From Lingula anatina (Eukaryota; Animalia; Brachiopoda), in the NCBI GenBank assembly GCA_051362555.1, contig CM120642.1, forward strand, positions 1,488,001-1,552,000: a DNA stretch of 64,000 nt, written 5' to 3'. Positions 32,941-59,655 of this stretch are shown here, one piece after another; position 1 is the first letter of the stretch; each line of letters opens with the position of its first letter. The notes below the pieces were generated by a model. That model was not told the origin of the DNA. It saw only the letters and a program-made list of their open reading frames with translations, and made no database searches. Made by a program: the position numbers and the translations under genes.

Positions 32941-33294
32941 TTAAAAGATCGGATCACATCCAGGGCAAAGGTAGTAAGCGCCGGATTCTCCCGTGGGACA
33001 CACACAGTCATCCTTCTTATCACAGCAACTACTACTGCCATCGGTACCGCAAACATCTTTTATTACTGCGCACGCTACATCTTTGTCATCGGGTTTGATA
33101 TCGCAGCGCGGTATGTCCTTGTCTTCTGGATAATCCGGGGGTTTGCAGTTACAAGGTTTTCCTTCATCATCTTTAACGTAATTGCAGCATAGGTATCCCC
33201 CTTCTGCCTTCATATCGAACTTGCACAGCGGAAGATCCAAGGACGCCGAGAGAGTGGCGCACACACAGGTAAGAAAAACGATGAGACAAACCAT
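32941..33294 (-). CDS. Secreted cysteine-rich protein, 14-Cys family, copy 1 (117 aa)
   Basis: Hydrophobic signal-peptide-like N-terminus. The mature framework is C-x11-CC-x10-CxC-x13-C-x10-C-x6-C-x7-CC-x5-CxC-x10-C-x2-C. A tttgcag acceptor lies just upstream of the ATG, and three paralogues are in the window. Confidence 0.88.
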   Translation of the reverse strand: MVCLIVFLTCVCATLSASLDLPLCKFDMKAEGGYLCCNYVKDDEGKPCNCKPPDYPEDKDIPRCDIKPDDKDVACAVIKDVCGTDGSSSCCDKKDDCVCPTGESGAYYLCPGCDPIF

Positions 33295-36200
33295 GTTGCT
33301 TGTTGCTGCAAATGTTTAAATAATCCCATACAATACCATATGTGCATCGGGTAAGTAAAAGGACTAATCCAACACAGATTTTAGTCACTCAAATATTGTT
33401 CACTCTAATTTAATTTACTTTATATAACTTCATGGTACTGCCCTTAACACATTAAAAATCTGACTGGATTTTGTAAGATCATTTTTTTGTAGGGAACGCC
33501 AAAAATTAACGCCAAACGGGCGTAATGAAATCTACTGATTCGAATTTGCTAGAGGCAGTAGCAGTATTGAGTTAAAGTTTAAAAAAAAAAGATCTTTAAA
33601 CAGATTTTGAGAAATTTGAAGTAAGGTGTGTATTCTATGCCCTTATATATATATAAACATTGTTTTCTGCGTGCACTTGAGTACAGGACTAAGCGACCTA
33701 AACAGTCTCTCCTTCTGAATTCCTGAATCTAATATACAAATTGCTGCTTCATTATTCTTACATTACACATAACTGTCTTTCAGGTATGTCGCTAGACATT
33801 AAACGTGCATATCGTAGATATATGAGTTTAAAAAAAGAAGTTTCCATATAAGTTTCAATAGTTATAAAATAGGAGAGCGCCATCTTCATGTGTATTCCAA
33901 TGAGAACCTAAATTTCTTTATGATGTTGATCAAATACCAATACATATTTTACCTTTGTATTTCTTGCTCTCTTTTTCTCGTTTCTTTTTCGCTAGTTCTA
34001 AGCAGAGGTGTTAGATGTTGGAGTCAAATAACACTTTACATGGCAATATATACCTGTGGTTGCGGCCAATTAAATCTTTCAGTGGCATGTGATATATCTC
34101 AAAGTCCAGAGCCCCCATTGGCTGTGACTGCATTAAACTGTTTATTTTCTAAAACTGCATAAAAACATCATTTGCGTGGGCTGTGACGTGGATGCATGCA
34201 GAATTTGTGCTGATTTGGCTTAGATATGTATATGCGGGTGGAAAAACTTGGAAATCCATTAAGAGAGTTAATAATCCCTGTCTCTAAGAATGAGATACAT
34301 TTACAGTGCATTACAACTTGCAGAACAATGATTTCAGCCAGAAAAGTTCAAAATTATTTAAATTTTTCTTTTGAAATTAATTTCTTGACGGAGGATAACA
34401 ATAATGAGACGTTGGGTCTTTATAAATCGTGAAAGTAGCAGGTAAATATTATCTAGCAGCGTCAACTTTGGCCAAATACAGGCCTAAAACTTTAACATCA
34501 TTGCCCTTAACAAGGACTGACTGAGCTGCTGATCACATGCTGGTCACTGATGTACTCAATCCTTTTCTTTATTTGTCTCTAATTCAGTCAGCTAGTTAAT
34601 TTAGTTCGATCCGCCAGTCAATAAGTGATAGTTAATCAGCAGCTTGTCACTCAGTTAAAATTTGATCAGTTTAAAAGTTATGGATTCAGAGACAAGTATC
34701 TACAAATACCAACAGTGCCTGCTGCTATAACTAACGGTCACCATGGGAAACCACTGTAACAGCACGCGAACGTAAATCATCCGAGATACACCAAAGCAAT
34801 TTGACTTAGCGTTAAATTAAGTGAAATTTTGCGGAATTTTGAGGAGAGTGGGATAAGAAATAACGGCAGAAGTGCGGTGCGATTCCGAATAAAAAAATTC
34901 TGATTGTTTCCCCTTAGGTTCTCTCAAACTACAGTATACTGCCAAATATTTCAAATTCGCCATGTTTTGGAGGTCATTTTTGTATTACTTTCCAAGGAAA
35001 AACATTCCTGGCACATAGAGTTTCACCCTTATCACTGAATAGTTAACCCCAACTCACGCGGATTCTCGTTTTATTTTAGTCTCGTATGACGTCACGCGTG
35101 CCGACAGATTTTGCCCCTCATCTTTAAAGGGATACAATGATTAGAACACAAAAGCGGATTTATGGATCATGATTTTTTTCAACAGTTATTATGATATTTC
35201 TAACGTGGTTAAGGTAAAGTTGAAATTTCCAGGAAATCAAATGATAGTCAAAAAATCAAAATCTCAAAAGAGACAGAAGTTTTGAAATTTTATTAAAATG
35301 ACTTAATATATATTTTTGTTACAGATGACAAAAAAGTGGTGGGTTAAGACGTGTTTACTTATATTGTACGTGCACCATTGCATTCCTTATGTAAAAGTTG
35401 TGCTCTTTTCCTTTTTATTTTACATCTTATCTACATGTCACGTTTATGGATATTCCAATGACTCAAAAGCCGCTGTGTGCTTCACGTATTAGGTGCATAA
35501 TAGTTCCAATAACAACAACACTTTGATGAATTTGGTTTGTTTCCGATATGAAATTTATTAACCATCCCCTATATAATAACCATCTATATGGCAAGCACCA
35601 TTGTTTGTTTTGTTTGAGTGAACAGAGTGTGACATGAACTACAACTGAAGCGCTCTAATGTATATTGCATAAGAAAACCACATCTAAGAAGAATAGGGAC
35701 TCATCACGGCAACAATTTTAATGTGTAAATATTTGCAGTTCCAATGAACCTATTAGACCTTGTAAGGTCACCTCCTTTAAACTGTTTTTCTATAGTAATG
35801 TCAGAGAAGAATTTCGTCAGCTGTTATGTACTAAGAATAAAGCTGTTATTTTGTCTTCTGTCAACAGCTAGAATTGAAATCATTGTTTACCTCCAATATT
35901 TCGATGTCTATCTAGAAAATTTTCATCAAGACATGAGGCTATCCAGATGAACTGGTAGACTATATGTAGATAGACATTGAAATGTTAGAGTGTTTTTTTT
36001 CTCTCTCATCATATTGCGTCAAAATTACGTGTGTTTATTAACGTTCTTTAACATATATGCGATTTATATGGATTTTGATGTCAGAGTTTCTATATCATTT
36101 TAATACGTTCCATCCCATGCACTCTAAAAAAGCTCGTTCGAGAAACATTTACTAAAAATGAAGGACCAACAAAAAGGAAAATAGCGGTTGGTTGACCTCA

Positions 36201-36984
36201 AGTAGTTGTTAAAAATAACTTTACTTCAACAGATATGTAAAATAATGGAGGAATAAACACCAGACGACGCTAAATAAACACGTAGTAAATCAATTTAACT
36301 ATCTTTTATTGGTATTTTATGAGAATTGACCCAAGTTAAGTACATTTTGATGAGTACATCTAGCCTTTTGAGTGCTTAGTTGTGGTTTACAAGGTGTAAA
36401 TTATACATGTAAATACAAGTTACCTACTGGGAGTTAAATTCAAGTAACAAAGTATGTGCCATACAAAGTGTTTCTTAAAAAGTGTTTCGCATGACTTAGA
36501 ACTAGAACTTCTGGTATTCGTTGGCATGGACTCCCTTTGAATTCGAGGAAAGGGCTGGGGTTTGGTGTTTATCCTCTCACAAGTGCATATAAATTGATCA
36601 CAATTTTTAGACAAGAACAGAAAGCAAATATATACATACGAATACACCCTGGTACTACCATACTACCCCAAATATAATTTCCGCCTTTCGAGTGATTTCA
36701 CCCAATTGCCGTGATATGCAATAACGAATGGACTTTCCTAAATCAAGACACGTGCACTAGATGGTTATATAGGCCTAATTATTTTGTAAAAATAACTGGT
36801 TGCCTGTTCTGATTGTATGTGAACACTACTGCAGTAGTAAACAAGGTTACAATAAATTTATAAATTTTAAAATACAAGTTAGTACAGGTATTTACTGTCA
36901 TTTAAGGATTAACGAATTACATGTTAGAATGTTATAAAAGATTCCCCAAGAGCATAAATTCTTTAAAGGCCTTCTTGCTCATTT

Positions 36985-37335
36985 TCAAAACTTTATTTGG
37001 CAGTTGTTACAAATGAAGTAAATGCCTGATTCGGTGGGTGGGCATTCGCAGTCGTCCTTTTGGTCGCAGCAGCTGAAGTATTTACGTGGCCCGCACATAT
37101 TCGGTATGGTTTTGCAGTATTTGTCCTTTGCTGCGTCTAAGGTACCGCAGATTGGCAAGCGTTTGTCTTCCGGGAAGTTTGACGGCTTGCAGCTGCAGGG
37201 GGTATCTTCGTGTTTCACGTAGTTACAGCAGAGATAGTCGCCATCTTCTGTCATATCGAACTCGCACTGTGGGAGCTGATCCGACGCCACCATTGCCGCA
37301 CAGACGCAGGCAATAACGATCAGGTGGCGGAGCAT
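36985..37335 (-). CDS. Secreted cysteine-rich protein, 14-Cys family, copy 2 (116 aa)
   Basis: Same Cys framework and ESGxY(Y/F)xC motif, with tttgcag|gaacaaacgctccaccATG. Confidence 0.88.
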   Translation of the reverse strand: MLRHLIVIACVCAAMVASDQLPQCEFDMTEDGDYLCCNYVKHEDTPCSCKPSNFPEDKRLPICGTLDAAKDKYCKTIPNMCGPRKYFSCCDQKDDCECPPTESGIYFICNNCQIKF

Positions 37336-37969
37336 GGTGGAGCGTTTGTTCCTGCAAATGTTTGGTTTAATACATAAGATTGTTGTTTATTTGCTCGTTG
37401 TTCTCTCCCGCATAAAAAAATTAACAAATAAATAAAGAAATGAAGTGGCTTTAACCAAAACATCATTCTAAATAATCTAATCTAACTATATTTAAGAGAA
37501 TACAACTATATTAGGCAGAATGAAATTTTACTTTAAGGCAAAGGAATTTTCTTAGTTAAAAACCAAGTGGGTTATGTCATTGGCTACCAGAGCATAATAT
37601 GCAATGTTTATAACATTGAATATGCATAATTTTTGAAAAAATGTCAAAACAAACAAGACTGAACATGGAAAACGATGCAGAAAATGCGTTTAAATATTGT
37701 TTTTCTTTTTTTCTTTTTTTAATGAATATAGAAGGTAAGGTTTTACCACATTAGTCATTGTCCGGTGTCAAAACTACGTGTAAATTAAATCTGTGGTATT
37801 TCGCAACATTCGTCTGAATCCCATACCTTTCACTTTTGCAAGCTGTGTTATAAGTCTGGTTATTTTTTGAAGACAAATCAAAATAGAAATACCATGAGCG
37901 CAAAACATTTAACGGACCCCAGTTTCTTAAGACAACTTTGAGAGGACTGCAGTACACTGAAAATCTTAC

Positions 37970-38110
37970 CTTTTAGCTTCTTGATTCACTTTCGACTAAC
38001 AGGGCGGAGGCCCTTTGACTTGTAGCTGTCCTTGTAGCAGTATAGCAATATAGTAGTACAGAAATATCTTTAACTTCTGTCCGGTGGCGATGTGACCGCC
38101 AATATATAGG
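37970..38110 (-). promoter_or_regulatory. Putative non-coding first exon and TATA-like box of copy 2. Equivalent elements are at ~33953-34055 (copy 1), ~45848-45970 (copy 3) and ~60135-60255 (copy 4)
   Basis: A minus-strand AG|GTAAG donor (cttacct at 37965-37971) has a TATATATT about 135 bp upstream. The same arrangement precedes each paralogue. Confidence 0.6.
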
Positions 38111-40196
38111 TGTAGCCGGTGTCCAGGTCAGGTCAGATGAAATAACAATATTCATATTTTGGCCCAGGAAGTGGCACAAAGGTAGTTTACGGACGCCTCT
38201 TAGTCGCTATTGACTGTGACTACACTAGCCCTTCATTATCTGAAACAGAATAAATGAATTCAAATGTCAAGAATTTGACGTGAATTTATGTATTCTTCAT
38301 TCTGTGACATTATTAAAAGAATGAAGGGGAATTTCAGATATTTGTAAAGGTATTTGTCTTTTAACCCTTCTCGTTTTATTCTCCTATTTTGTTTTATTTT
38401 TGTTTTATAGTAAATATATTTTGTAAAATGTTTCACACGCAGTTATTGAGGGAAATATTTCTCCGTAAAAATAATCAATTCTACTTAAAAAAAAAGAACA
38501 GATGTTGGCTCAAGCCCAGGGGAGAAATGTCTATCACTTTTTCTGGCTAAATGAGGACAAGATAACGAACTCTCTGATGAAAGATGTTCTAAAATAGTGA
38601 ACAAAATTAAAATAACAGACAACTAGCGCACCCACTGGCCAGAGAGTAAGACAACCCGTGTCGGAGACAGCAGAACTTTCGTAACGTGTTTATAAACAGT
38701 GTAATACGTGTTTCGAAATTAAAAAGACGAATTGGTAAGATAATCACATTCCCCAAACTTTTTGCTGTTCACGAGAAACATTCTTCATAAGTTTAATACA
38801 CGTCCACTTGAGTTGAATTTTAACGCTGTGTGAAAAAATATAAGATATTACATTTCACACCTCCTATGACGTCAACCATTAATAAGGCTAGAATTTACTA
38901 CGTAGTTCGAACTGAAAGCATTTCAAAGCGAGCTTTAGCTATTTGTCGTGTTACCTCGGCACTGTAAAATTCCTATTCAGCTGTCTTGCGGCGGTATATT
39001 CATAATAATTTTTATGTATTTAAATCAACCGCAATTTATTGCAGAATGCTGAGTTTCGTCGTCATGATTTCATAGTTATTATTTCCATGTATAATTTATT
39101 ACGCACCAGTGAAATAAAGTGTATAAAGTATTTGTTCTTTTTTCAGCGAAGATTCAATTGATAACAATTTTCCTGAAAATATGATTTATCATTCAAAATT
39201 CCATTAGCTCTGAGATTTGCCAAATGTAAAAAAAGTTGTAATTAACAATGGAAATAATTAACAATAGCCACTATAAATGAAACGACTCTCCTACCTTTAA
39301 CTGCCATTTTCCGGTGTGTGTGTGTGTGTGGAGGGGGGGGGGGGTACTCTACCAGAAGTGCTAGCTGTTATTTAATAATTGGACGAAGGTCTTAGTTTTG
39401 CAATGTTAGAAACTGCTAGAATGGCATCTGGTAAAGAGAAGCGGTGTGAGGGAGAAAGTTTGTTACGGGCTTTTCAATTTCTAAGAAGGTGTCTGCTTAA
39501 AATCAAATTAAAAAGTTAGAGATAAATTATTTATAGCGTTTTATTTCCTATCACCCTTTTGATACATGGAACTCTACCTTACGTCGGTACCTTGTAAAAG
39601 CTTTCTGCTGACGTCGGAAGACGCCTCCTTCTTCATTTATTCCATTTGACATCTTGTTTACGCCCAATCACCATATCTATGGCGATTTTATACAGGTCAT
39701 CAAGTCTGGCCTTTTTAAACTTTCATGAACATGCTTTGTAGTAGGGGGAAAGACGCCAACACATTCCGTTAACTAGTATAACCAGTATAACTACATTTAA
39801 TATATCCAGTTTAACCATGTCATTTACGCTTTATCTCGGCGTTTAAACTTCATTGGCGCATGTCACACGTTTCCTTGGACTAGAGTTAAGAATTTCACTT
39901 TTCTTGGTTGATGTTTAAAAGGGAAGTTTTTATCATAATAGTCAAGAGAAGGTATAATTAACGATCTTAAAAATCGTTCCATGCTTCTGGTCAACAACAA
40001 GTGTTGATAAATGTCTTTGATTCATTGTAGAATTACTGTATGATTCTTATTGAATTGTTTTACACTTTGACAACTTTCAATGTATGCACATGGAGAGATA
40101 AATTAAATAAAGTTACCTTCCCCTTCTCCCAGTCTGATGTCTTCTCTTTTCATCCAAACTGTGTTTTTTCTGTCTTATCTCTCTCTCAAACACAAT

Positions 40197-40228
<32 letters not shown>

Positions 40229-42084
40229 CACACACACGCGTACATTCTTTCTCTCACTTCTGTTTATGTAACAACCATCTGCTCAAATACCCCATACCTG
40301 CTGTCATGTCTGAATTTATCAGTTTCGTGTCAAAGCCATGCCACAAACCGAAGGATGAAAACAACTTTGAATATTTATTTGAAAATACTCATTTCACATA
40401 AAATATCATTTGTCAAGCCAGGTGAGGGAGAACATACAAACAATGTCAGGAAATATGTTTTATTCATTGTTATTTGTGGTTTGGTGAAGGCTTCCGATTG
40501 CTGTTTTCTTGCATTTTAATAAAAGGAAAGGACCACAGTAAATCATTATAATATCACTCGAAAACAACATGGGAAAACGACGGAAGAGAATATTGGAATG
40601 CAGCATAGAATGCAATCTTCGTTATGTATTTATTTTATTTGAATGATCATATTATTATTTATCTTCTGTCGCTGTTCTGTTATTCAGTGTAAGTGTTAAG
40701 CCGCCGTTGACTCAGCTTGTGACTGGTATGGTACTATTTCGTTAAAAGACATACATGTAGGAACGCACCAGCGGACGCAAGCAGTGTCTTAACTGGGCGT
40801 TTCTATCAAGGGATGATGACATTAATATTGTATTCATTTCCCTCCCATGCTAGCCATGGTAGCATCCTCAGCGGACTGTGACGTCTGTTTATCAAAATAT
40901 GAAAATATATTAGATTTAATAATTCGTTTACATTTTCTTTGCGTCATCACATATGTTAACACGGAAAAAAAATAAGACGAATTACCAATTCTTGAATGTA
41001 GATTATTTGGGAAATTGTAATGACGATCTGTTCTCATAGACGCCCTTTCCCTCTCCTTATCCCATTCGTATCAATCATTAGATTGTTTAAGGGATTTTAC
41101 TATTTTTATTTAAACAGTCTAAATACTAATCAATCAATCTATACACTATTTTTGTCTTTGTTGTATTAAATTAATATCGTTCTACTCGTGATGATGGAGA
41201 TATAACAACCAATATGGCCTATCTTTACTTTTTTGCTGTCTTGTATGAGTCCCATTTTTCACCATCTCAACACCCATGTTGTCAAATATATGTAATGCAA
41301 CATATGACAAATACCTAATCTCGCGATGTAAGGTATTGAATTTGGAAGTTTAATGTTTCAATACCATAATATTTGATGTACACGTATGCCCTCCTGGGTT
41401 GAAGTAACTAACTTTTTATGTACTCTCAACAAGGGTCAGGTGAGTGGTGGCGGCAACTCTGTGCAAAGATTCTCGCTGGACGGTACAAAAATATGCACTG
41501 AATTAACCAGGGATATATCTTTGACTATCTGGTCCAAAATTCTGCCTGTGGCCCTCGTAGAGGGTGCCCTTTATACTGCATAATTGGTGGACTCTAGCAT
41601 TGTCCTCCTTTAACTAAAGTCTATGGGCACTTTAAGCTGACCTTTCTCCTCGAAACAGCACCTTGTGAACTTATAATAAGTGGCACAATTTTAATGACCT
41701 GATTTATTCAAAATTAATCATATTGGCTAGTTTGGGTTTTCTGAGTTAATAAGGTCACATTTATTAAGGTCGGAATGCCAGCTGAAGAGAGAGCGGGTCA
41801 CAGACAAACGTGTCACCCCGCTTGTCATGCTTACCTGTTGCTCTTGCTTATTTTCATAAATCAGCATGATGATTTGATCTAGGTGTTGAAATTATTCCAA
41901 GAGATTGGTAAAATTTACTTTTGACTCTGTTGTTTCAGAATAAGCTCAAGTGGGATAACATGAAAGTAGAATCAATTGGTAGATGAATAAGAGAGGAATG
42001 TCGACCCCTTTTTTTTCTCCCTTGTGTCTTAACCACGTGGGAAAAAAATAATTTAAGGCATTTAAAATTACGGCAAAATTATCC

Positions 42085-42229
42085 AAATATTGCCATTTTT
42101 TCCAAAAATGTCTTCGCAGTGGTAAAAGAATTTTAAGTAAATAAATTCGAAAAAAAATATTGCCATTTTTTCCAAAAATGTCTTCGCAGTGGTAAAAGGA
42201 TTTTCAGTAAATAAATTCGAAAAAAAATA
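42085..42229. repeat. 70-bp tandem duplication
   Basis: aaatattgccattttttccaaaaatgtcttcgcagtggtaaaag...taaattcgaaaa occurs twice. Confidence 0.9.
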
Positions 42230-44910
42230 AGTAGATTTAGATGAAAATTTTATTTTTTGATAATATTTACCAGTGTTTTATGCTGCGAAATTTCCAAGGA
42301 AAAGTATTAAAAATTTAGCCAATAAGCCCCCCCACCCCATCGTGTCATCTTCTCATATTTTACCACTGATCCACAGTATCATAAATCTTTTTAAAGAGGC
42401 GGGATGTTCCCAAGGATAAATTCCATATGCCTTCGTTATTTATTCCTCCTATATTGCAACAAAGTTGAACTAGAGCGTAAATATTTGTATTAATTGCAAT
42501 ATTTCCTTGTTGTCAACTGCAAATTCGCAAGGGGTGGGGGTGTTTATGACCTTGGAGCAAATATCTGCAGCGTCATACAAGATGTGCTGAATGAATTGAA
42601 AAAAAGACCTTTTGTGTCTAGTTCGAGCGTTTAATCCAATGACAGAGAACATTTCGGAATTGCGCCATTTTATGATTATTAGATGACTGGAGAAAAACCA
42701 GTAACGGATTTATCACAAAGCAATTCATTTCTCACAAGACATTTTTAGAGTAGAATGTAGAATGACTTCATATTAAGGCGAAGTTTCTTGACTTGGAGGC
42801 TAGTAATGGTTGATGCAGAATTCTACATATTAATACTGCTTTTTTGTCTATGCTGTTGGATAGTTTATTAAAGATGGAAACCATGAGTCCTGGATTTAAA
42901 GGAATACCCCCTTAAGATACATAAAAACGAAATACCATTTCACCAATGTTGCGTTTAACAGCCAAATGTAGTAGTTGTGCAGCACATGATGTTCGTAAAA
43001 ATGTGACACTGCTCATCCATCAGTTGCGAACAACCCCTAAACCAACAAATTAGGCTCACAAAAAAAAAAAAGTTTAAAGTCCAAATGATGGTCGGTGCTT
43101 TTCAGTTGAAGATACATTCACACTAGTTTTATTGAATGAAGTAAAGCCTGTATTGGTCTGAAGCAAAAGTCTATAAAATAGGCGCAGTATTTCATACAAT
43201 TTGACTACTTCTGATTTATCTTGAGTCAAATATAAATCAGTAGTAATCAGTGGTTTTTGGTTAGACCATCTCCCGGTAAGTTGCGGTTATAACGGTATCC
43301 AGACACTAAAAATATAGAAAGCGTTTACGGTTATCGTAGAAGGGAAATGAAAAAAAAATCATGCACAGATCAGTATATCACTGTACAGTACATCAATTAC
43401 CTTTTCCCCATTAATTTACTAAAAAACTGATAAGGATTACAAAACATGGAGACGTCTGTGAGTTAGCTTCCCCCCCCCCCCCATTTTGTTTTAGGTTTGA
43501 AGCCTATTATGAATGAAGCAAAATTAAAAAGACAGTCATTCTTTTTGTCCGTAATAGTAAACGAAATAAGTTACAAAGGCGCAAAACTACCACATACTTT
43601 AGGGTCCATATTCTTGACGTGCATGCTTGAATAGAAAGAATGCATCACACATAAAGCACCCATGCGGTAGCTGTAGTATCTAATGCAGAGTTAACTCGCG
43701 GATAACAGCAAAATAAACCTTTTGGTGACATTTACCTGCAGACTAGGACGATAATAAAGACTACAAGACTTAATCAAAACTAGACTGTTAATTAGACACT
43801 GGACATTCTATTAAAGAGACAGAAATGTCTAACACAGGTAATAAACTTGACGCGTCTCAGTATTTCTGACAGTGGGCTGAGTTTGAAACAACTTCTCTGC
43901 CAACATGAAATTAAAGAAATAAAAACAAAAGAAAAGAGAACGAAATATAATAGTACAACGCAACACACACTTCAAAGTACACTCATATAATTTTTATTAT
44001 TTATAAAAATACAGTGATGTATCATTTGGATCCTAATCGATTGATTTGTTATATTTACAACGGCACTTTAGCCATTCTTAAGTAATAGGGCCTATCGTCA
44101 TACTGTATTTTGAACATGTTTTTGTAATGATTTTCAAAAGTAAATGTAGGGCCATTGAAAAGTGTCCTGTAGAACCCCAAAGTGATTTATGAATTCCTAT
44201 AGCGTATTACAATACTTCTAAATTATCACAATTTAGTTTTTGGTGGGTGCACAACCTTCAGTGGAAGTCTGCCTTTCATATTCAGGATGACGTTTTCTGA
44301 TTTAGGCCAAGTTGTTCTGTGTAGACACATGTACCATAACGTCGAGTATAGAAGGAAGAGTCAAAAACTTGTCAGCTGGAAGACGCTGAGTGTCCATTTT
44401 TAAAGCGACTCCTTCAGATGTAAAAATTGAACTTGGTGCCGTTACCTTAGTGCGTTAGACAGCTTTTGATAGAATAATGCCTTTAATTTTTCAGTTTGCA
44501 TATATATATATATGCCTTTATGGTTATGGCGTTCAAGACCAGGCGAGTAGTTCAAAGTTCCTTCGTTCACGTGTGCGAATATTTATCAATACTTTAACAT
44601 TACGAAATAGTATTTACATATATACATATATATATGTACTACATCACTAAGTTAAGTTTTTTATCGCAACCTATCTGTTCGGCAGCACATACACAGTACT
44701 AACGAGAAATAAACTGTTTCTAAACCGGGCTTAATCTTACACTTGCATCATGCCAATATACATTTAACATTTAATAAATTACTGTTCAGTATTTGGTATA
44801 AAAAGAAAGACATAAACCTACTTCAGATATGAGCGTTACAGCGTTTCTAATTTTACCCATGATTTTTTTCTAGGCTGTTCATTTCCATTTTTTTTCCTTT
44901 TTCTATATTT

Positions 44911-45264
44911 CTATAATACTTGCACGCAATTATTACACAAGTAGTAAATGCCTGATTCGTTAGGCGGACATTCGCAGTCGCCGACCTTGTCGCAGCAGCT
45001 ATATTGTTTGTTTATACCGCACATGTCTTTTTTAATTTCACAGTATCTACTTTGGTCTGCATCCTGAGTACCACAGCGTGGTATGACCTTGTCCTCGGGG
45101 TATCCGGGGGGCTTGCAGCTACACGGAGTACCGGACTCATCTACGGTGTAATTACAGCATAGATAGTCACCGTCTTCCGTCATCTGGAACTCACACAGTG
45201 GAAGATTCAGGGACGCCGAGAACGCGGCGCACACGCAGGCAAGACCGATGATGAATCGAAGCAT
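44911..45264 (-). CDS. Secreted cysteine-rich protein, 14-Cys family, copy 3 (117 aa)
   Basis: Same framework, with tttgcag|aaacaagcaccATG. Confidence 0.88.
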   Translation of the reverse strand: MLRFIIGLACVCAAFSASLNLPLCEFQMTEDGDYLCCNYTVDESGTPCSCKPPGYPEDKVIPRCGTQDADQSRYCEIKKDMCGINKQYSCCDKVGDCECPPNESGIYYLCNNCVQVL

Positions 45265-46913
45265 GGTGCTTGTTTCTGCAAATTTTAACGCAATGTATAC
45301 AATATGCTACAGTATATACTGTATATGATGCAGTATATTTCATTCTCTGCATTGGAAAAGACGCATGAAATAAACCAAATGATTTTAGACAGGACTTAAT
45401 GCTTTTTGTTGATATGCTAATGTGGTTCTCTTGCCTATTTAATGATAACGCACATTTTTCACAAACATATCACTTGAATTTGACATGTTTACAACATGTA
45501 AACGACAAGCCTCGTAAATAAAGTACTGACACCGTGGAAAAGTTGAAGTAAACAAAAGGCAATATGGAAAGCACATCGAATCCCGTTTTAGTGGAATATT
45601 TTGCAATAATTACGCTGTTCTTCCTTTTTGCTAAAACTTATATACAGATTTATTGCAAGTTATGCATCAGCATTTACTTGAAAAATGTGACCTTTTACAG
45701 ATATAAATGTACAATAAACTGACATTTCTAATGAAATACCATTATTTTACTAAATATAGCAAAGTGGAGAAACCCTCAAATGTGCGCAATACATAAACAG
45801 AAAAATTTTAAACCAAACCAATATGAAATCGTGTAATTAACTCTTACCTTTTGGCTTCTTGCTTTCCTTCTCACGTATTAGGTGCCTTTCAGCTTTTTCT
45901 TGATTTGCAGTAGTCGAGCAATGTCTTCAGTTTCTGTTAGCAGTCAGTTTTTGCACCAATATTTATACCTGGACATCAGGTTAATTAAGGACAATTTGAT
46001 GCGTTCGACACACCGGAAGCTGCACGCTGTCACTCGGGGGCTCGCCACGGTCGCCATTAGCTGTCACCACACTCTCTTCTCAAATGACAAGAATGCGACA
46101 TGGATTTATGTAGGTTTTACCCCACACTGTCTGAATTGGAGGAATGAGAATGGGGGGATTGCAGCTTTAAATTTTGAAATGGTTTCTTTATGTTTATGGT
46201 ATTGCTTGTTTTATTTCAAGCTTTATTGCACCACAGACTTTTTAATTTTTTTTTTTAATTTTTCGTTTCACTTTTAAAAGGTTTTTGAGGGAGAGTTTAG
46301 ATACAGAAATAAAGAAGGACTTTTTTCTCTTCTAGATCATAAGTTAATGGTAATAATAATAATCCTGTGAAGATAGATAGTTGAAAAGCGTCTGTAAGTT
46401 ACACACCCCCTCTGACGTCACACATCATCCCTAGAATTTACTACGTAGTTTAGATTGAAAACTTTTGAAAAGAAATTTTTGCTAATTGACAGATCTCACT
46501 GGTAATAACTTAGTCTCTTTCTACAATCTTATTGTGGTTAACTCGAAAAAATGTTTGTAATTCGACCGCAATTGACTCCTTTCTTTATCATTTCTGTGCA
46601 TAAATTTTATTCGCTTTCGGGTACTTGTTTGTGCTCAATTACCATATATATGGTGATTTTATACGAAACACTAAGTGTGACTTCTTTAAATTCTTGTGTA
46701 CTCGAAGGTATTTAGATGATTTAAGCGTGCAATTAGAAAATATTTCCATGTATTAATTGTTGTATTGTAGACGGTGCGCATTTGGCTTCACTGCGACTTG
46801 AGAGTTCGGATTTCTAAATTATAATAAAATATTTCATTTTTGCAAGGAGGGCGATACTTTAAAAAGTGTGTATTTGAAAAGAACGTTGGTTATAATCATA
46901 ACAATGCATTGTA

Positions 46914-50918: not shown

Positions 50919-53075
50919 TCAAAGATTATGCAAACTGTACACCCTGACCTCATGGAGCTGAGTCAAGGTGACAAACTGAGTAACAAATAACAACTTGTTG
51001 TTTTCATCCACAGCCAACCCCATTGGTTTCTCAATACCATCAGCAATGGTCAAAAGGTGGCGCTGAAATAGGCCATCTTTGCCAAACATGGAGATGCGAT
51101 TGTTGCCATAGTCTGCAACAAGGATGTTCTCTTTGTAGAGACAGACCCCGTAAGGATGGTTCAACTGACCTGGTCCACTGCCATGTGACCCTATGGTGGA
51201 CTCAAACTCTACTCCAATTATATCTGATCTTCTTTTTACAATGGTGCATTTCAGCACTTTTATGCAGTGATTTCCATGATCAGAGACATATATCAAATGC
51301 TGAGCAGTTTCTGTTGGTGATTCTGAATTGGGACATTCTGTGCACATAAACTCGGGATTTTTGAACTGATTGTTCTGGTCCCCATAACTACCTAGACCCC
51401 TGTGACTGTTAGGATAACCATCATCAAAATCATTATCATTATCATTATTATCATTATCATCATCATTATCATCATCGTCATTATCATTATCATCATCATC
51501 ATCATCATTATCATCATCATTATCATCATCATCATTATCATCATCAGCATTATCATTATCATCATCATTATCATTATCATAATCATTATCATCATCATCA
51601 TTATCATCATCATTATCATCATTATCATCATCATTATCATAATCATAATCATGCTCATAATCAACTGCTAAGAATGAAGATTTGCTGGACAATACAAACA
51701 TAAGATTGTCTCCCAAAGTGATTGCACTGGGCTCAAAAAAGATGTTTGATACTATTTCTTTAGACATCTTTGAGCTGCGGGGACTATAAGATGCATAAAT
51801 ATAGGCACGTTCTTGTTCATTGTATGAATCAGGTGGGATAGGATGTCTATCCTTTACCTTGTACAGCATTTTAAAAGAATCATCATAAAATACCTTACAC
51901 TGGGTCACTAGTTGGTATCTGCAGCCCTCATAGTAGATCTCAGAGAACACATTCTGAACATTGCCTGAATAATCAAAGAAAAACACACTGCCAGCCTCAG
52001 AGGTATCTGTGACAGCAAAATAACCGTCAGATGTGCCAGGGCTGACACTGGAGGGGCCATTCAGGGGGGAACCAATACTTATAACCCTGGTGAACTTAAG
52101 TTTGGGTTTCATGATGTTACTACCCTGTTTGGTTGTGCTGTTATCAAAAGAAAGATGAGAAGAAGCTGACATGATGTTCTGAGAACCAGCCAGATTTTCA
52201 GTAGTTGCCACCCCAGACTCAAACACCTTGATACCCTCAGCTAAGCTATCAGAGATTGACCTTAAATCACTCAGTGATGGACAGCTGGAGAGGAGCTTTT
52301 GACACGCAAGATCTATTTTCAAATAGCTCCCTCGTCTTGCACGAAGATGGTCCCGAGCCGTGTTAATGGCTTTCAGTTTCTCTTCAGCACTTTTTGACTG
52401 GGCATCATGGACTCTGATCTTGTCTTGAAGTTCCTCTGCCCCCTGGTGGTATTTCTGTTGTAGCTGTTGCAGCCATGTTTTTTCTTTGTCAGCGACGACT
52501 TTGGCATCGGTGACTTCGCAGGATTTGTGTGACGTCATCAGGCAGACCATACAGATATAGATGGCGCACGTTGTGCAGTAGTATTTTAATGCCTGTTCAT
52601 CATGTAGGGAGCAACTTCCATGGTTCCTGCTTAGAGTACAAAGCTGATGAGAAGCAGTGATTTTCACACGACCGTGTTCCTGTTTGCAAATGGAGCAAAG
52701 AAATTCACTGCAGGTCATGCATTGATAGTCGGCTGGTGCTGACTTTTTTAAGACAGAGCAAATGAAGCACAACTTCACTTCTATAGCAGCAGCAGTTGTT
52801 TTCTCAACTTTAGCCTCCACCTCACTTAGCCAGGATTGTGTGGGAAAATCTTCCAGACTCCCCCCAGGGGCCTCAATACACATACCACAGCATGGGCAGC
52901 TGAACCTCTGGGGCTCGGTAGGGGGGTCTGTCAACTGAGTGTGGGACTGTAGACAATGTAGACAGAAGGAGTGGAGGCAGGGGAGAACCTTGGGTGTTTC
53001 TGGGTTGCAGAGACATATCTCACAGCGGGAAGGACTCGTGGTGGCGCCATCTTCTGATGGAATATTGCTTGCCAT
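50919..53075 (-). CDS. TRIM-NHL (TRIM2/3/71-like) E3 ligase, 718 aa, single coding exon, with an Asp/Asn-rich insertion
   Basis: RING (CEIC...LPCLHSFCLHC...CPCC), B-box1 (CFIC...CMTCSEFLCSIC..EH), B-box2 (CSLH...YYCTTCAIYICMVC..SH), a coiled coil, and NHL repeats (IYVSDHGNHCI, GSGPGQLNHPYGV, VADYGNNRISMF, PMGLAVD). An acceptor ttatcag lies 4 nt before the ATG, and a candidate upstream non-coding exon has its donor near 56142. Confidence 0.92.
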   Translation of the reverse strand: MASNIPSEDGATTSPSRCEICLCNPETPKVLPCLHSFCLHCLQSHTQLTDPPTEPQRFSCPCCGMCIEAPGGSLEDFPTQSWLSEVEAKVEKTTAAAIEVKLCFICSVLKKSAPADYQCMTCSEFLCSICKQEHGRVKITASHQLCTLSRNHGSCSLHDEQALKYYCTTCAIYICMVCLMTSHKSCEVTDAKVVADKEKTWLQQLQQKYHQGAEELQDKIRVHDAQSKSAEEKLKAINTARDHLRARRGSYLKIDLACQKLLSSCPSLSDLRSISDSLAEGIKVFESGVATTENLAGSQNIMSASSHLSFDNSTTKQGSNIMKPKLKFTRVISIGSPLNGPSSVSPGTSDGYFAVTDTSEAGSVFFFDYSGNVQNVFSEIYYEGCRYQLVTQCKVFYDDSFKMLYKVKDRHPIPPDSYNEQERAYIYASYSPRSSKMSKEIVSNIFFEPSAITLGDNLMFVLSSKSSFLAVDYEHDYDYDNDDDNDDNDDDNDDDDNDYDNDNDDDNDNADDDNDDDDNDDDNDDDDDDNDNDDDDNDDDNDNNDNDNDFDDGYPNSHRGLGSYGDQNNQFKNPEFMCTECPNSESPTETAQHLIYVSDHGNHCIKVLKCTIVKRRSDIIGVEFESTIGSHGSGPGQLNHPYGVCLYKENILVADYGNNRISMFGKDGLFQRHLLTIADGIEKPMGLAVDENNKLLFVTQFVTLTQLHEVRVYSLHNL
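51421..51660 (-). repeat. Coding (GAT/AAT)n microsatellite encoding ~80 Asp/Asn residues
   Basis: The (atc/att)n tract on + is in frame within the TRIM ORF. Confidence 0.95.
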
Positions 53076-53333: not shown

Positions 53334-55037
53334 CTAGCGGATCAGAGGCAATACCGCCTCTGGATATTGTACCACCAGCTGGAGTAAGCTCATTTGTATG
53401 GAAAACCAAAAAATAAAAAAGGGACACCACTACCAGTCTTGTGCTTGACAAGCTCCATAAAATGCAATAAACAAGAATTCTCAAAATATCAAAAAAAAAA
53501 AAAAAAACCTGTAAAAAGTGGTCCTACCAATTTTCGAATTGACCTGTATTTTCCTCACATTGATCACTCCTGTAATTTTTTAGACAATAGGCCTATTAGT
53601 TTTCCTCGAAATGTATTATCAGTGTTGCATATTTGCTGATGAAAAAGAAAACCAAGGGGCAACACTGGGCTGATCTCTGCTAGTTTTGAAGATATGAGGG
53701 GCAAGAAAATATGGAAAGTTTAGTTCATGGTGAAAAAGAAGGTCAAAGGTCAATTTCAAGGTCACAGTATAAGACGGCACAGTATAAGCTACGGGAATAC
53801 CAAACTGCAGGACAATCTCCCTGATGCAACAACAGAACTCACTCTCTGGTCCCATGCTAATAAACTAACAATAAATACTACCAAGACCAAAGAGATCATA
53901 TTTGATTTCTCCAAAAAAGGACACAAAACTACACCCTTACTAGTAGATAATCAAAGGATTGAGAGAGTGGGGTCTGCTGTCTTTTTAGGGGTTAGGATCA
54001 GTAGTGATTTGAGCTGGGAAGGTCACATCTGTGATATTTGTAAAAAAGCAAGTAAAAGGCTACACAATCTTAAGCTTCTGAAAAGAGCGGGTATTCCAAC
54101 CAATGAACTTGTAAGCTTTTATACATCAGTAATCAGACCTACATTAGAATATGCATGTCAGGTGTGGCACCCAGGTCTTACACAACAACAAATTGAATCC
54201 ATCCAGATTAGAGCATGTAAGATTATATTCCCAGAGCTGTCCTATGATGGGGCACTTGAAACATGTAAACTTATCACTCATGCTTGTAGAAGAGATGAAC
54301 TATCTAAAACATTATTGCATAACATGTACTCTGAAGGACACAAAATCCATCATTTGCTACCAGATAATATTATGTTTTTACCTGATATTATGTTTTTTTT
54401 TCTGCAACATGAACTTCACTTCTTATGTATGAATGATAAATGTTTCTTATATATGATGTAGGATATTTCTGAAGAGGAAATCATTTCTGAAGTATAAAAA
54501 TACCTCCTGATATGTGTATAGATATGATTTTTGGCATTGAAATCATATTTCTGAATACTATTTATTGGTTCTGGGCTGTGATAAACATGTTCTGCAATTA
54601 TTTCCCCTTTGGCTTGCCATAAGTTTGACCTTGAAATAAAGGCCAAAAGTCAAATCCAAGGGCATATTTGGAATCTTCACATATGACTTTCGGTCAGACT
54701 TCTGTGGTAATTTTTCCCATAATTCCTTCGATTTGGGAGATATTTGGCATTGAATTTTCAAAAATTTTGACAAGGGTGTGTTTCAACGAGCGTCATGCCC
54801 AGGCCAATGCACTGACTGAGACAAAAATAAAAGGGGTTTCAAGTTGAGATTATATGTGACCTAAATCCAAGAGATGGGGACATGGGTCCTTGCAGTCTAG
54901 GAGGAGAAACGGTAACGGTGACTTGTATCCAGCGCCAGTACGCGAAGCCGGCGGAGTTGCAGAAGCCGGTGGAGCCGTACGAGACGGGTCAGGATTAAAA
55001 CCATGAGTACTGCCAGCGTACAAGCTGGTGGTACTAA
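53334..55037 (-). mobile_element. Helentron-associated non-autonomous element (HINE/DINE-like)
   Basis: On the minus strand it begins TTAGTACCACCAGC with a nearby inverted copy. It ends GCTGGTGGTAC + hairpin CAGAGGC-ggtatt-GCCTCTG + CTAG(TT), and is inserted at TT/AA. The empty site is visible in the inverted paralogous arm at ~58790. Internal tgacctt-type motifs are present. A degenerate copy of the same end lies at ~16134-16190. Confidence 0.75.
53785..54365 (+). mobile_element. Non-LTR retrotransposon (CR1/L2-group) RT C-terminal fragment inside the HINE-like element
   Basis: WSHANKLTINTTKTKEIIFDF, FLGVRISSDLSWEGHI..ICKKASKRLH.LKLLKR, FYTSVIRPTLEYACQVWHPGL and IESIQIRACKII. Confidence 0.85.
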
Positions 55038-55861
55038 TAAAAGGGAAATCAAATAGATGAAAAGTTAGAGTGATATTGAGTGTAAATTAAGTTTCATCAA
55101 GAGTCAATAAGTGTAGAACTTGTTTTTAATGTCAGAAAAAGATAAAAAGGGTAAAAGTCAATAACATTTAATGTGACTGGTTAATTTCATAACAGATTTT
55201 AGTTTTGATCAACTGTTTATTACATGATAACTAAGTTTTGGACATGATTCAAGTATGAGTAATGCAAATAGTATATTTTGATAAGTTTAGTTGAAAACAA
55301 GGCTCTAATTAGACATTGCCTAATAAGGGAAATGTCCTATGGTAAAGTAAACATGACAATGGAAAGTTTCTGGAAATCATGCCTTTAACAATAAAAAGAT
55401 ATAATTACACGCGTGATCAGTACAGAGAATTAGAGTATAAATATGGGTAAAATTGTATGAAAAGTGAGTGGTGAGTAAATGATTGAAGACTCCAGAACTT
55501 CGTCGTCGTTATAATATTATTCACTACATTCTCTATCTGCATGGTTGTTTACAAATAAAATACATTTTCCCAGTATTGTGAACTTTCAATAAAATAAAGT
55601 TAAATTTTATCAACTTAAAAATAGCAATTGATTATTAAATCTTTATTTTCTGGTAGAATTTGATATTTATAACTTATAAGACAAGATGGATGAAGGGGGA
55701 GTGGCAAAAATGGCCGCCATATTGGAGATTTTATCTGCATTAATCTTCTTTCACAGTGTACACGACAACATAAACAGCTGTGAAACTGCCAACATAACAA
55801 GACTCATTAATTTTTTTGTATAAAGAAATTGAAATTTCCCACTTTTTTACATTGGTTTAAT

Positions 55862-55953
55862 GGGGCCGTAGCGATAGTCCGAAGGTTCATTGGTCCGAAT
55901 GTTCACTATAGAACCTTCGGACCAATGAACCTTCGGACTATCGAGACGCCCCC
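55862..55953 (+). mobile_element. Short non-autonomous element, copy 3 (92 bp), with a perfect 8-bp TSD
   Basis: ggtttaat|ggggccgtagcgatag...ctatcgagacgccccc|ggtttaat. Confidence 0.85.
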
Positions 55954-56305
55954 GGTTTAATTATGCATGAAACTGTATGGTTATCATGTTTTTCTAAGAC
56001 ACGTCATACCGATGCCTACTAACCAGTACCAGCCATTAGACGTCTATTTGAGGTTAAAACTTTTCATCCCCCTTCTTCACTTCTCTCCCACTTATTAAAT
56101 TCTAAATTTTTATGAGGATAATTAGAGAAAGATGTTGACTTACCTTAATTAAATCCCGCGACCGTTAACTGTTATCGAACAGATTGCCCTGATGTAATGC
56201 AGGCACTGGTAGCAGTCTGTGCCAGTCTGTTCTTCTTTCACTTTGCCAAGTGGGAGTTCCAAGTATCAGTGTCCCGTGACAGGATTGGATTTTGATTGTT
56301 GACAT

Positions 56306-56538: not shown

Positions 56539-59322
56539 GTGTTCTTTATCAGAATGTTAATTTTAGACTGATCTTGAACTGATACAGGTGTTCATTCTGT
56601 ATGTAGGTCGGGTCAACTACTATGTACATTGGGTAGTTCTGTGTCAGAGATATGACATTTTATACTTAAGAGGCACTCTTATATTAGCTTTTTTTGCGAT
56701 CTGCGCAGATTTCGCGCATGAGAAGTTTTTTTGCGATAGCGTCTAATGATAAAAATATAAAATGCAATAAAATATGTAATTCGTCCTTTTATGAAATCTG
56801 TGTTGTTATTTTGGTCAACAATGTGTTGCGTATCAATAAACGCTTGGTCTTTTACGACGTAAAGTACTTTCGACTTTCTTTACGAATGCCGCGATGAAAG
56901 AATTTTCGCGGAGAAGGGATGGAAAGGAGCGTTTAAGTAAGGCTTGTATAGCATTGACAAGGCTTGTATTATCCCATGGAAAATATTCACAAGGGCTGGC
57001 CAAGAAGTGCCTTGTGGTGATTTGTCACATGGTTACGATGTGTGCTTCAAGACATCGTCTTCTACTGAGCATTGATATCCGATCACTCAAGTAAAAATGA
57101 TTTGTATGCTGAAAACTTTTCTCTTTTCTTTCCCAATTAGTTAAAATCATTAGACTTATTGAACAACATGACCAGTAAACAGTGCGATTTTCAACTCTCC
57201 GTGCACCCATGTGACGTGAGACGTTCACGAGCGGACATTTGGTGTTGCGATGTAGATCTACACCATTCTTCTATTGGTTTTGTTTTCTCTACTTCTATGG
57301 TTTTGTTAAAGTGCAAATGGACAAAACCCATAAATCACTTAACAGAGGACCAAGGATTTTTGGTGGAAATACATGCTATACTTTTTTGATGCTTAGGAAA
57401 TAAACAGTATATTTTAGAAGATAAATCGTACTCTGTTCCACGTGACAACTTTATCCAAATTTACCCAATCATAAACAAGAGTAACGTTTTGTAGTTGCTT
57501 GCTAGATTTTAAGTGAATATAGATATAGCCTACGTAAGATGGACTCTCAACTTCGATCACTGCTTAATTATTTTCAGGTTAAAAAAGATTGCAAATATTT
57601 TGAAAAATATTTTTTAAAGCAATGCCTTTTTTTCACAATAAACATGGGAATTGCCAACCTTTTCCATGCAGTGCAATTATTACACACAGTAGGCCTACAA
57701 TTATTTATTTTACTGTGTGCAATTATTACACACAGTACAATTATTAATTTTGAAATATTTTTCCATTCAGTACAATTATTTGGACAGTTAAGTTAATATT
57801 TGAAGATTTCTCCATACAGTACAATAATTTAGAAGCACCAAGTGTTTTTTCAGTGTTTTTAATCATATAGAAATATTGAAATATAATAAATTATCACTAA
57901 ATAATTCACGGCACACATTTTTAAAAATGGCCCGGCCAGATTTTGACCAAGGCAGATTCATGTTATCTGATTTTTTTATTTCATCCCAGTCAATTGAATA
58001 AATTCTGTGTTCAACCTCTAGCAAATTCTTAGAATGCCTCCTTTCTTAAAAAACAATTTCTCCATGTCTAGGCAAAAACATTAACATTAACATTTCAGCA
58101 TTTAGATATTTTGTTTCAAAGAGAAGGTGTAGTTGGTCTTTATTTTCCTCTAAGTGAAATTAATCCAAACACACACACACACCATGCAGTAACAAAATGT
58201 ATGAAAGTATTAAGAAAATTGTAGGATTTAGATGTCCTTAGATGAATATCTTGTAACTTGGTTTCCAATGCACGTTTGTCAACATCCACACAAGAAATAC
58301 CACATGCAACTTACCAGTAGTAAGACACTGATACATTGTTAATATTATTATAACGACGCTGGAGTTCTCAATCATTTATTCACCACTTAATTTTCATACA
58401 ATTTTACCCATATTTATACTCTAATTTTCCGTACTGATCACGCGTGTAATTATGTTCTTTTTATTGTTTATGGCGTGATTTCCAGAAACTTTCCATTGTC
58501 ATGTTGACTTTACCATAGAACATTCCCTTATTAGGTAATGTCTAAGAGCCTTGTTTTCAACTAAACTCATCCAAAATACTATTTGCATTACTCATACTTG
58601 AATCATGTCCAAAACTTAGTTATCATGTGATAAACAGTTGATCAAAATTAAAATCTGTTATGAAATTGACCAATCACATTAAATGTTATTGACTTGGACC
58701 TTTTCCATCTTCTTCTGACACTAAAAACATGTTCTACACTTGTTGACACTCAATATCACTCTAACTTTTCATCTATTTGATTTCCCTTTTATTACTAATT
58801 GTAATGAGTGTAAGGGTAAGTAATTAACTTTACAACAATATACAAAGTAAACATTTTATCCATTCAGTACTATTATTTGGATAAAAAAAGGAATAAGAAA
58901 ATAAAAGTCATAAGAGATTGGCCCAGCCTATGAAAAATCCAATATGTCGGCATTCCATGAGGCACACTGAAATCAAACTGATACTCTATACATTTAAATA
59001 TCTATTTCTTATGAATTTGATGTACAAACTTTGCAATTAAGCGAGAATGCCCTGCAGAGTTGGACCTATCCATAGAATTTTTCACCAGAAATTTGAATTT
59101 GAAAAAAAAAAAAAATATAGATATCACAGACATTTCACTATAAAACTTAATTCTTAGTTTTTATTCCTTGCCAGATATCTGTTCGAGAGCACACACAAAT
59201 AAAATGTCCCAAAGGCACCTAGGTCAGTTCTTCACTTGAATTAATATTACTGTTCAGCATTTCGTATCAAAAAGAGTATAGATATGAACGTTTCTATCGT
59301 TGCATAAGACTTTTTCTTTTAT

Positions 59323-59655
59323 TTATTTTTTAAATACTATCATGCAGTTATTACACAGGAAGTAAACACCAGATTCGGTCTCTGGGCAGTCGCAATAGTC
59401 CATCTTGTCACAGCAGGCGTATAATCTATCAGGACCGCACATATCCGCTATTACCTGGCAGTAATAACCCTCGGTGGTCTTGGGGCAATGTCGTATGTCG
59501 TACGAGAGCCTAGGGGGCCTGCAGCTGCACGGCTTATCTCTATCGTAATAGCAACAGTCATAGTTGTCTTCAATCATTTTGAACGCACACAGTATGTAAG
59601 GAGTGACAGAGGCCGAGACGTACACGCAGGCAAGGCCGATAATGAGTCGCAGCAT
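59323..59655 (-). CDS. Secreted cysteine-rich protein, 14-Cys family, copy 4 (110 aa, most divergent)
   Basis: Same 14-Cys framework with shorter loops. The true start is inferred at MLRLIIG (59655) because tttgcag|aaataaacatcATG mirrors the paralogues. Confidence 0.85.
   Translation of the reverse strand: MLRLIIGLACVYVSASVTPYILCAFKMIEDNYDCCYYDRDKPCSCRPPRLSYDIRHCPKTTEGYYCQVIADMCGPDRLYACCDKMDYCDCPETESGVYFLCNNCMIVFKK

What the first reader, a model, noticed from the sequence alone, without database searches (positions are those of the whole stretch)
32941..59655. Cluster of four paralogous secreted mini-proteins with an invariant, unfamiliar 14-cysteine framework
Seen: four same-strand ORFs (32941-33294, 36985-37335, 44911-45264, 59323-59655) each have a signal-peptide-like start and 14 conserved mature Cys (C-CC-CxC-C-C-C-CC-CxC-CxxC). 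They share an ESGxY(Y/F)xC motif, while the inter-Cys loops differ widely in sequence, length and charge. The C...CC...CxC...C pattern occurs twice, suggesting an internal two-module origin. Knowledge: a fixed disulfide scaffold with variable loops in a tandem family is typical of toxins, antimicrobial peptides, protease inhibitors and pheromones. I do not recognise this spacing as WAP, Kazal, Kunitz, granulin, ICK, ShK or LU. Inference: a lineage-specific, diversifying secreted effector family.
Basis: partly seen in the sequence, partly recalled or inferred. Interest (0 to 1): 0.85.

Follow-up and report, generated by a model that had tools for sequence, protein, structure and literature searches.

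The report
Brachiopod's orphan 14-cysteine secreted mini-proteins
Four tandem genes in the brachiopod Lingula encode small acidic proteins with a shared 14-cysteine pattern that matched nothing in the databases searched; at least one is spliced and transcribed, and they are predicted to be secreted and likely act as disulfide-locked protease inhibitors in defence.

Summary
The four ORFs are real paralogues on the minus strand with 14 invariant mature cysteines. The window is from Lingula: a neighbouring Kelch exon is 99% identical to the L. anatina protein. All four share a TATA box, a predicted non-coding exon, a 468-647 nt intron and one coding exon. RNA reads confirm the gene 3 intron and strand (30 spliced reads in one run), weakly cover gene 2 and miss gene 1; gene 4 was not tested. 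No homologue was found in Pfam, PDB sequences, 5.8 billion proteins or 1.84 billion representatives. The C-half has knottin-like spacing (C-C-CC-CxC-CxxC). Its six-residue first loop carries four consecutive replacements in the reads of one run. Best guess: secreted defence protease inhibitors using that loop (0.35). Fold and function are untested; both AlphaFold2 models failed. This is an undescribed framework of a familiar kind of family.

The parts
32941..33294 (-). Gene 1 coding exon (P0001, 117 aa; mature about 100 aa, pI 4.3). AATAAA lies 2 nt after the stop.
   Evidence: no reads in 4 of 4 runs
33306..33952 (-). Gene 1 predicted 5'-UTR intron (647 nt, GT..AG); TATA box at 34052
   Evidence: motifs shared with gene 3; not read-confirmed
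36985..37335 (-). Gene 2 coding exon (P0002, 116 aa, pI 4.6)
   Evidence: depth 1.3-1.8 in run X4, same strand bias as gene 3
37352..37969 (-). Gene 2 predicted 5'-UTR intron (618 nt); TATA box at 38108
   Evidence: donor region 19 of 20 nt identical to gene 3's; depth 0.56 in the exon-1 bin in X4, no spliced read listed
44100..44910 (-). Gene 3 3' UTR (lower end approximate; AATAAA at 43998)
   Evidence: depth 22-39 in X4
44911..45264 (-). Gene 3 coding exon (P0003, 117 aa, pI 4.2, N-glycosylation sequons at N38 and N102)
   Evidence: depth about 36 in X4
45019..45042 (-). Gene 3 codons 75-82: loop between Cys75 and Cys82, the candidate target-contact loop
   Evidence: X4 reads differ at 6 bases in codons 76-79, giving four replacements; loop is 6 residues in 4 of 4 paralogues
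45276..45847 (-). Gene 3 5'-UTR intron (572 nt, GT..AG)
   Evidence: 30 spliced reads in X4 and 1 in X9; same ends predicted from motifs
45848..45917 (-). Gene 3 non-coding first exon (read ends pile at 45917); TATA box at 45967
46585..46724 (-). Conserved upstream block shared with gene 4 (60326-60462, 79%) and gene 2 (39653-39719, 76%); likely regulatory
59323..59655 (-). Gene 4 coding exon (P0004, 110 aa, pI 5.0, shorter N-half loops)
   Evidence: expression not tested
59667..60134 (-). Gene 4 predicted 5'-UTR intron (468 nt); exon 1 is 80% like gene 3's; TATA-like box at 60253

Best explanation
These are four tandem Lingula genes, at least one spliced and transcribed, whose predicted secreted 11 kDa products likely fold on seven disulfides and likely act as defence protease inhibitors, presenting the six-residue Cys75-Cys82 loop of a predicted knottin-like C-terminal module to the enzyme. 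Shown: gene anatomy, splicing and strand of gene 3, strong sample-dependent expression, invariant cysteines, acidity, purifying selection between paralogues, and clustered replacements in that loop. Inferred: secretion, disulfide pairing, the knot, the loop as binding site, and proteases as target. The broader statement, a disulfide-locked scaffold that binds an extracellular protein through variable loops, I put at about 0.7.
For: Even cysteine count in the mature chain and in each half (6+8), behind a hydrophobic N-terminus. The C-half order C-x6-C-x7-CC-x5-CxC-x10-CxxC is invariant in 4 of 4. It resembles spider group II ICK (C-C-CC-CXC-CXC; PMC6070231, passages) and has the common knottin loop a = 6 and loop c = 0 with a possible extra hairpin disulfide (PMC2238874, passages). 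In the knottin EETI-II the trypsin-binding site is a single six-residue first loop (PMC3041754, passages). Here that loop differs among all four paralogues and again in X4 reads of gene 3: E76D, I77T, K78I, K79A, plus Y88A. Of the 11 listed coding-exon differences, 8 lie in replaced codons and 6 fall within 12 nt; the chance of such a cluster is about 0.0002-0.05 for background divergence of 3-8%. Acidic charge fits a protein target better than membranes (knowledge). Fast change at inhibitor reactive loops is recalled knowledge; my paper search for it listed 0 papers.
Against: No sequence match to any inhibitor or knottin family, whole or by halves. The second loop (7) and the hairpin are long for a squash-type knottin (recalled), and the loop lacks EETI-II's Pro-Arg. 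The cysteines can also be parsed 7+7, which would not give a self-contained knot. Only 40 of 126 difference rows were shown, so the clustering may be partly a selection effect. The cluster could be one event such as gene conversion, since several X4 residues match genes 1, 2 or 4, and X4 reads could come from a recent duplicate rather than an allele. Paralogue dN/dS is well below 1. The closest analogue, mussel MgCRP-I, showed no activity in the assays tried (PMC4558851, passages). Tissues of the runs are unknown.
Confidence: 0.35

Rival explanations
1. Signalling or recognition proteins (water-borne pheromones, gamete-recognition or spawning cues) that bind conspecific receptors.
For: Expression differs more than 50-fold between runs (depth about 36 in X4 against 0-0.6 in X1, X7, X9). 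Local loop divergence between populations is also typical of reproductive proteins, and several known invertebrate and ciliate pheromones are small, acidic and disulfide-rich (recalled).
Against: No family motif was found in the supplement of a brachiopod, phoronid and nemertean neuropeptide survey that names Lingula 430 times; the only hit was a bryozoan insulin-like sequence (PMC8557429, supplement search). No conserved dibasic processing site.
Confidence: 0.2
2. Defensive mucus toxins or deterrents: knottin-like modulators of ion channels or receptors of predators, parasites or foulers.
For: C-half spacing is close to that of spider channel-modulating ICK peptides. Related nemerteans have cystine-knotted peptide toxins (PMC8406415, search listing only).
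Against: No propeptide, acidic charge, low dN/dS, signal not hyperconserved. No toxin family hit. The 14-Cys Phoneutria framework is different. Lingula is a filter feeder with no venom apparatus (knowledge).
Confidence: 0.15
3. Structural or metal-binding extracellular proteins (shell, periostracum, chaetae, pedicle or burrow mucus), using acidic residues or cysteine pairs to bind ions or cross-link.
For: Acidic chains with CC, CxC and CxxC motifs. Chance-level matches of the terminal GxYxCxxC to zinc knuckles: PDB 9fhl E 0.79; GATA E 0.005, below the cut-off, in 1 of 8 half-sequences.
Against: Luo et al. found no secreted acidic proteins among Lingula shell matrix proteins (PMC4595640, passages). 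No motif hit in either shell-proteome supplement, though the newer list uses RefSeq ids and may be blind to unannotated genes. There is only one CxxC, and secreted cysteines are normally oxidised (knowledge).
Confidence: 0.15
4. Membrane-active antimicrobial peptides.
For: Tandem secreted cysteine-rich families are often antimicrobial in lophotrochozoans (recalled).
Against: Net charge -3 to -9; no defensin, macin or other AMP hit.
Confidence: 0.07

Closest known systems
Eight-cysteine inhibitor cystine knots (spider group II, C-C-CC-CXC-CXC; PMC6070231)
   Same: Order of the last eight cysteines; loop a = 6, loop c = 0; a hairpin that could carry an extra disulfide.
   Different: Last pair is CxxC; an extra six-cysteine N-half; no propeptide; acidic; no sequence similarity; knot not shown.
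Squash-family knottin protease inhibitors (EETI-II; PMC3041754)
   Same: Six-residue loop between the first two cysteines of the module; often Ile at the third loop position (3 of 4 paralogues and the X4 reads).
   Different: Loop lacks Pro-Arg; module has 8 cysteines within a 100-aa chain, against 6 in 28 aa; inhibition untested; no sequence similarity.
MgCRP-I of Mytilus (PMC4558851)
   Same: Lineage-restricted multigene family of secreted cysteine-rich peptides in a filter feeder, non-coding first exon, patchy expression, function unresolved.
   Different: MgCRP-I has 6 cysteines, a propeptide with dibasic cleavage, four exons, mostly positive charge and positive selection; here 14 cysteines, no propeptide, two exons, acidic, dN/dS 0.2-0.44.
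Phoneutria group VIII 14-cysteine toxins (C-C-CXCC-CXC-CXC-C-C-C-C-C; PMC6070231)
   Same: 14 cysteines in a small secreted chain.
   Different: Different cysteine order; no similarity found.

Membership tests
Inhibitor cystine knot (knottin) | C-C-CC-C-C order with typical loop lengths (a = 3 or 6, c = 0) | tested here: met
   C-half spacing 6,7,0,5 in 4 of 4 against PMC2238874; spacing only
Inhibitor cystine knot (knottin) | Knotted connectivity I-IV, II-V, III-VI | not testable with these tools
   AlphaFold2 pLDDT 39 (whole) and 44 (C-half): uninformative
Inhibitor cystine knot (knottin) | Sequence or structure similarity to a known knottin family | tested here: not met
   Pfam 0 hits for 4 of 4 whole proteins and no knottin hit in 8 halves; PDB profile searches none (59, 60)
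Squash-type protease inhibitors | Six-residue first loop | tested here: met
Squash-type protease inhibitors | Pro-Arg/Lys-Ile reactive sequence (PRILMR in EETI-II) | tested here: not met
   loops are EIKKDM, AVIKDV, KTIPNM, QVIADM
Squash-type protease inhibitors | Substrate-like binding and inhibition of a protease | not testable with these tools
MgCRP-I | Six-cysteine module, propeptide with dibasic site, four exons, cationic | tested here: not met
Kazal, Kunitz, WAP, granulin, ShK, LU, antistasin, TIL, VWC, sPLA2, i-type lysozyme | Match to the family's Pfam model | tested here: not met
   no Pfam family listed at max E 10 for 4 of 4 proteins; HMMER filters drop most matches above about 0.1. 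That these families have Pfam models is recalled.
Phoneutria group VIII 14-Cys toxins | Framework C-C-CXCC-CXC-CXC-C-C-C-C-C | tested here: not met
Lingula shell matrix proteins | Peptides found in shell proteomes | tested here: inconclusive
   no motif hit in two supplements; the newer list is keyed to RefSeq ids; the four proteins are absent from the protein collection
Secreted proteins | Cleavable signal peptide | tested here: inconclusive
   hydrophobic uncharged core and (-3,-1) sites in 4 of 4; SignalP and proteomics not available

The most novel reading that the evidence does not exclude
A new seven-disulfide mini-protein fold, a knottin-like C-terminal module joined to an unrelated or anciently duplicated six-cysteine module, forming a brachiopod-specific inhibitor family whose contact loop is changing fast between Lingula populations in an arms race with microbial or parasite proteases.
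Probability: 0.25. Interest if true: 0.68.

Novelty: new variant of a known kind. Interest (0 to 1): 0.45.

Why it matters
My eight paper searches found no description of such a family in brachiopods, and the four proteins are absent from the protein collections searched even though a neighbouring Lingula gene is present. If the reading holds, it adds a new disulfide framework, a possible stable scaffold, and a handle on how a long-lived burrowing lineage defends itself or signals. It also shows that short two-exon secreted genes can be missing from public Lingula protein sets. The kind of system (a tandem orphan cysteine-rich secreted family) is common in invertebrates, which limits the surprise.

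Tried and rejected
No whole genome is held, so copies outside the window could not be sought. The four profile hits in 1.84 billion representatives (E 3e-8 to 4e-4) were rejected as bacterial repeat proteins summed over 4-6 stretches: all four sequences were read, two were scanned in Pfam as PKD and Ig-like, and two carry such source names. 5.8-billion search with the alignment: 0 of 44 candidates scored E up to 1, lengths 60-205 only. Exact look-up: 0 of 7 window proteins in the collection. Metagenome contigs: 0 of 95 pattern matches confirmed. ESM Atlas was closed for this sequence. AlphaFold2 failed twice; one Foldseek run on the low-confidence C-half model gave only E 7.3 and is meaningless; the whole-chain model was not searched. 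Complex prediction with a bacterial serine protease was not available, so there is no verdict on binding. No RNA holder was listed in the run index; raw reads from 4 of 9 listed runs were laid on 32000-46200 only, so gene 4 and five runs are untested. The internal duplication was tested and is not significant with cysteines fixed. The VCGTDG likeness of gene 1 to Kazal domains (recalled motif) is not shared by the other three genes, and Pfam gives no hit. Earlier findings of this scan: none in 3 look-ups. A 2018 paper on the Lingula immune repertoire (recalled) is not held and could mention these genes. PMC9415933 (passages) held nothing relevant. I first read the database blank as an annotation miss, but the TRIM-NHL gene between genes 3 and 4 also has no close match (0 of 3094 candidates at E 1e-20, residues 1-420). 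The segment may therefore be absent, divergent or unannotated in public sets.

Full report
Observation. The + strand at the four coordinates gives no cysteine-rich protein. The minus strand gives four ATG-to-stop ORFs of 117, 116, 117 and 110 aa, here genes 1-4 (P0001-P0004). After a signal of about 17 residues each has exactly 14 cysteines, all aligned. Identity to gene 3 is 51-61%. The framework is C-x(10-11)-CC-x(7-10)-CxC-x(11-13)-C-x(8-10)-C-x6-C-x7-CC-x5-CxC-x10-CxxC, and the last seven gaps are the same in 4 of 4. A framework regex found 4 hits in the window and 0 in 100 shuffles. No further copy lies in the window. Coding GC is 48-51% against 31-42% in 2-kb bins of the window.

Organism and neighbourhood. 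The BTB/BACK exon at 17549-18223 is 99% identical to kelch-like 12 of Lingula anatina; the next hits are 65-66%. The window is therefore from L. anatina or a very close lingulid. Upstream lie a CLC channel, the Kelch gene and a C2H2 zinc-finger gene. Between genes 3 and 4 lie a DDE transposase fragment, a single-ORF RING/B-box/NHL gene and a retroelement-like fragment.

Gene anatomy. Each gene has TTTGCAG ending 11-16 nt before the ATG, a GT donor 468-647 nt upstream, and a TATA box 100-140 nt beyond the donor. Genes 2, 3 and 4 share collinear upstream blocks at 72-80% identity out to 3.6 kb; gene 1 shares only the acceptor region. This points to old segmental duplications that copied the promoter.

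Expression. Nine RNA runs with the same species label were listed, none indexed as a holder. Four were laid on 32000-46200 at 92% likeness, reading 6-30% of each. In X4, gene 3 has depth about 36 with first mates almost all on +, as expected for a minus-strand RNA in most stranded libraries. Thirty reads skip 45276-45847 with GT..AG ends, exactly the intron predicted from motifs; X9 has one such read. Depth at gene 3 is 0 in X1 and about 0.5 in X7 and X9. Gene 2 has depth 1.3-1.8 in X4. Gene 1 has none in 4 of 4 runs. Most reads are only 90-99% alike to the window, so they come from another population or a close species, and divergent copies may fall below the threshold. Gene 4 was not covered.

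Evolution. Nei-Gojobori dN/dS over the mature region is 0.20, 0.22, 0.27, 0.30 and 0.44; one of six pairs is saturated, and dS is 0.9-2.1, so the estimates are rough. The signal region shows 0.24-0.77 and is not better conserved than the mature region. This is purifying selection on old paralogues, not the conotoxin pattern (recalled). Within gene 3, X4 reads differ at 11 listed coding bases: three silent codons and five replaced ones, E76D, I77T, K78I, K79A and Y88A. Six of the 11 fall within 12 nt; the chance of that is 0.0002-0.05 depending on the background assumed. Caveats: only 40 of 126 difference rows were shown; several X4 residues match other paralogues, so gene conversion or a derived state in the window is possible; and the reads may come from a duplicate.

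Homology. Pfam gave nothing for 4 of 4 whole proteins and one sub-threshold GATA hit among 8 halves. PDB sequences gave nothing for the protein and the whole profile, and one hit at E 0.79 for the C-half. The 5.8-billion search scored 0 of 44 candidates. The index-free search of 1.84 billion representatives gave four weak hits, all bacterial PKD or Ig repeat proteins. Metagenome contigs gave 0 of 95. The TRIM-NHL gene inside the cluster also lacks a close match, so public sets may lack this segment rather than only these small genes. Without the genome I cannot say how many copies exist elsewhere, or whether other brachiopods have them.

Structure. Both AlphaFold2 runs on four-sequence alignments failed (pLDDT 39 and 44), and the one fold search is meaningless. 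The two-module idea was tested in 7+7 and 6+8 splits: p 0.02-0.03 against full column shuffles, p 0.13-0.18 with cysteines fixed. It remains possible but is not shown. The last eight cysteines follow C-C-CC-CxC-CxxC, next to spider group II ICK peptides, C-C-CC-CXC-CXC (PMC6070231, passages). Loop a = 6 and loop c = 0 are the common knottin values, and an extra hairpin disulfide is frequent (PMC2238874, passages). This is a resemblance in spacing, not membership.

Mechanism. Most likely each gene makes a precursor that loses a signal of about 17 residues, folds on seven disulfides and is released. The chains are acidic (pI 4.2-5.0), which argues against membrane-lytic action. The loop that changes in the X4 reads is the six-residue loop between the first two cysteines of the knottin-like half. 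In EETI-II the equivalent six-residue loop is the trypsin-binding site (PMC3041754, passages). I therefore commit to substrate-like protease inhibition, with different paralogues aimed at different enzymes, at 0.35. A beta-branched residue at the second loop position in 4 of 4 would point to elastase-like rather than trypsin-like targets (inference from recalled specificity rules). Rivals are pheromone or gamete signalling (0.20), mucus toxin (0.15), structural or metal-binding protein (0.15) and antimicrobial peptide (0.07).

Literature. Eight full-text searches (listings and abstract starts) showed no paper describing this family. I saw passages and searched supplements of PMC4595640 and PMC13425148, searched the supplement of PMC8557429, and saw passages of PMC4558851 and PMC9415933. 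No family motif was found in the three supplements. Luo et al. report no secreted acidic shell proteins. A subscription paper on Lingula immunity was not held, and bioRxiv supplements are closed; either could bear on novelty.

Verdict. A real, partly expression-confirmed orphan family with an undescribed 14-cysteine framework in a little-studied phylum. The kind of system is familiar, and neither fold nor function is shown. Novelty: new variant of a known kind. Interest 0.45.

Noticed in passing
window 50919-53075 (-): Single-ORF RING/B-box/NHL (TRIM-NHL) gene inside the cluster, with a 245-nt Asp/Asn-coding microsatellite (51419-51663); no close match in the protein collection.
   Followed up: partly
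window 8031-10720: A 1349-nt tandem duplication at 99.6% identity between the CLC channel and Kelch exons; a recent duplication or an assembly artefact.
   Followed up: no
window 28434-28610, 32374-32520, 55859-55957: Three copies of a palindromic MITE-like element with a 16-nt internal repeat; the copy near gene 1 collects reads from many other transcripts in 4 of 4 runs.
   Followed up: no
window 47087-47419 (-) and 53727-54461 (+): DDE_3 transposase fragment and a retroelement-like fragment (ALKBH8_N hit) between genes 3 and 4.
   Followed up: no
window 32935-32940: Gene 1 has overlapping AATAAA signals 2 and 6 nt after its stop, so its 3' UTR may be very short; it also lacks the upstream blocks shared by genes 2-4.
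   Followed up: no
window 44100-44900: X4 reads of the gene 3 3' UTR show many substitutions, small deletions and loose ends against the window, a sign of marked divergence under one species label.
   Followed up: no
window 55032-55524 and 58338-58797: A 494-nt inverted repeat pair at 86% identity just downstream of gene 4.
   Followed up: no
window 22989-25316 (+): A 775-aa single-ORF C2H2 zinc-finger array; its exact sequence is not in the protein collection.
   Followed up: no
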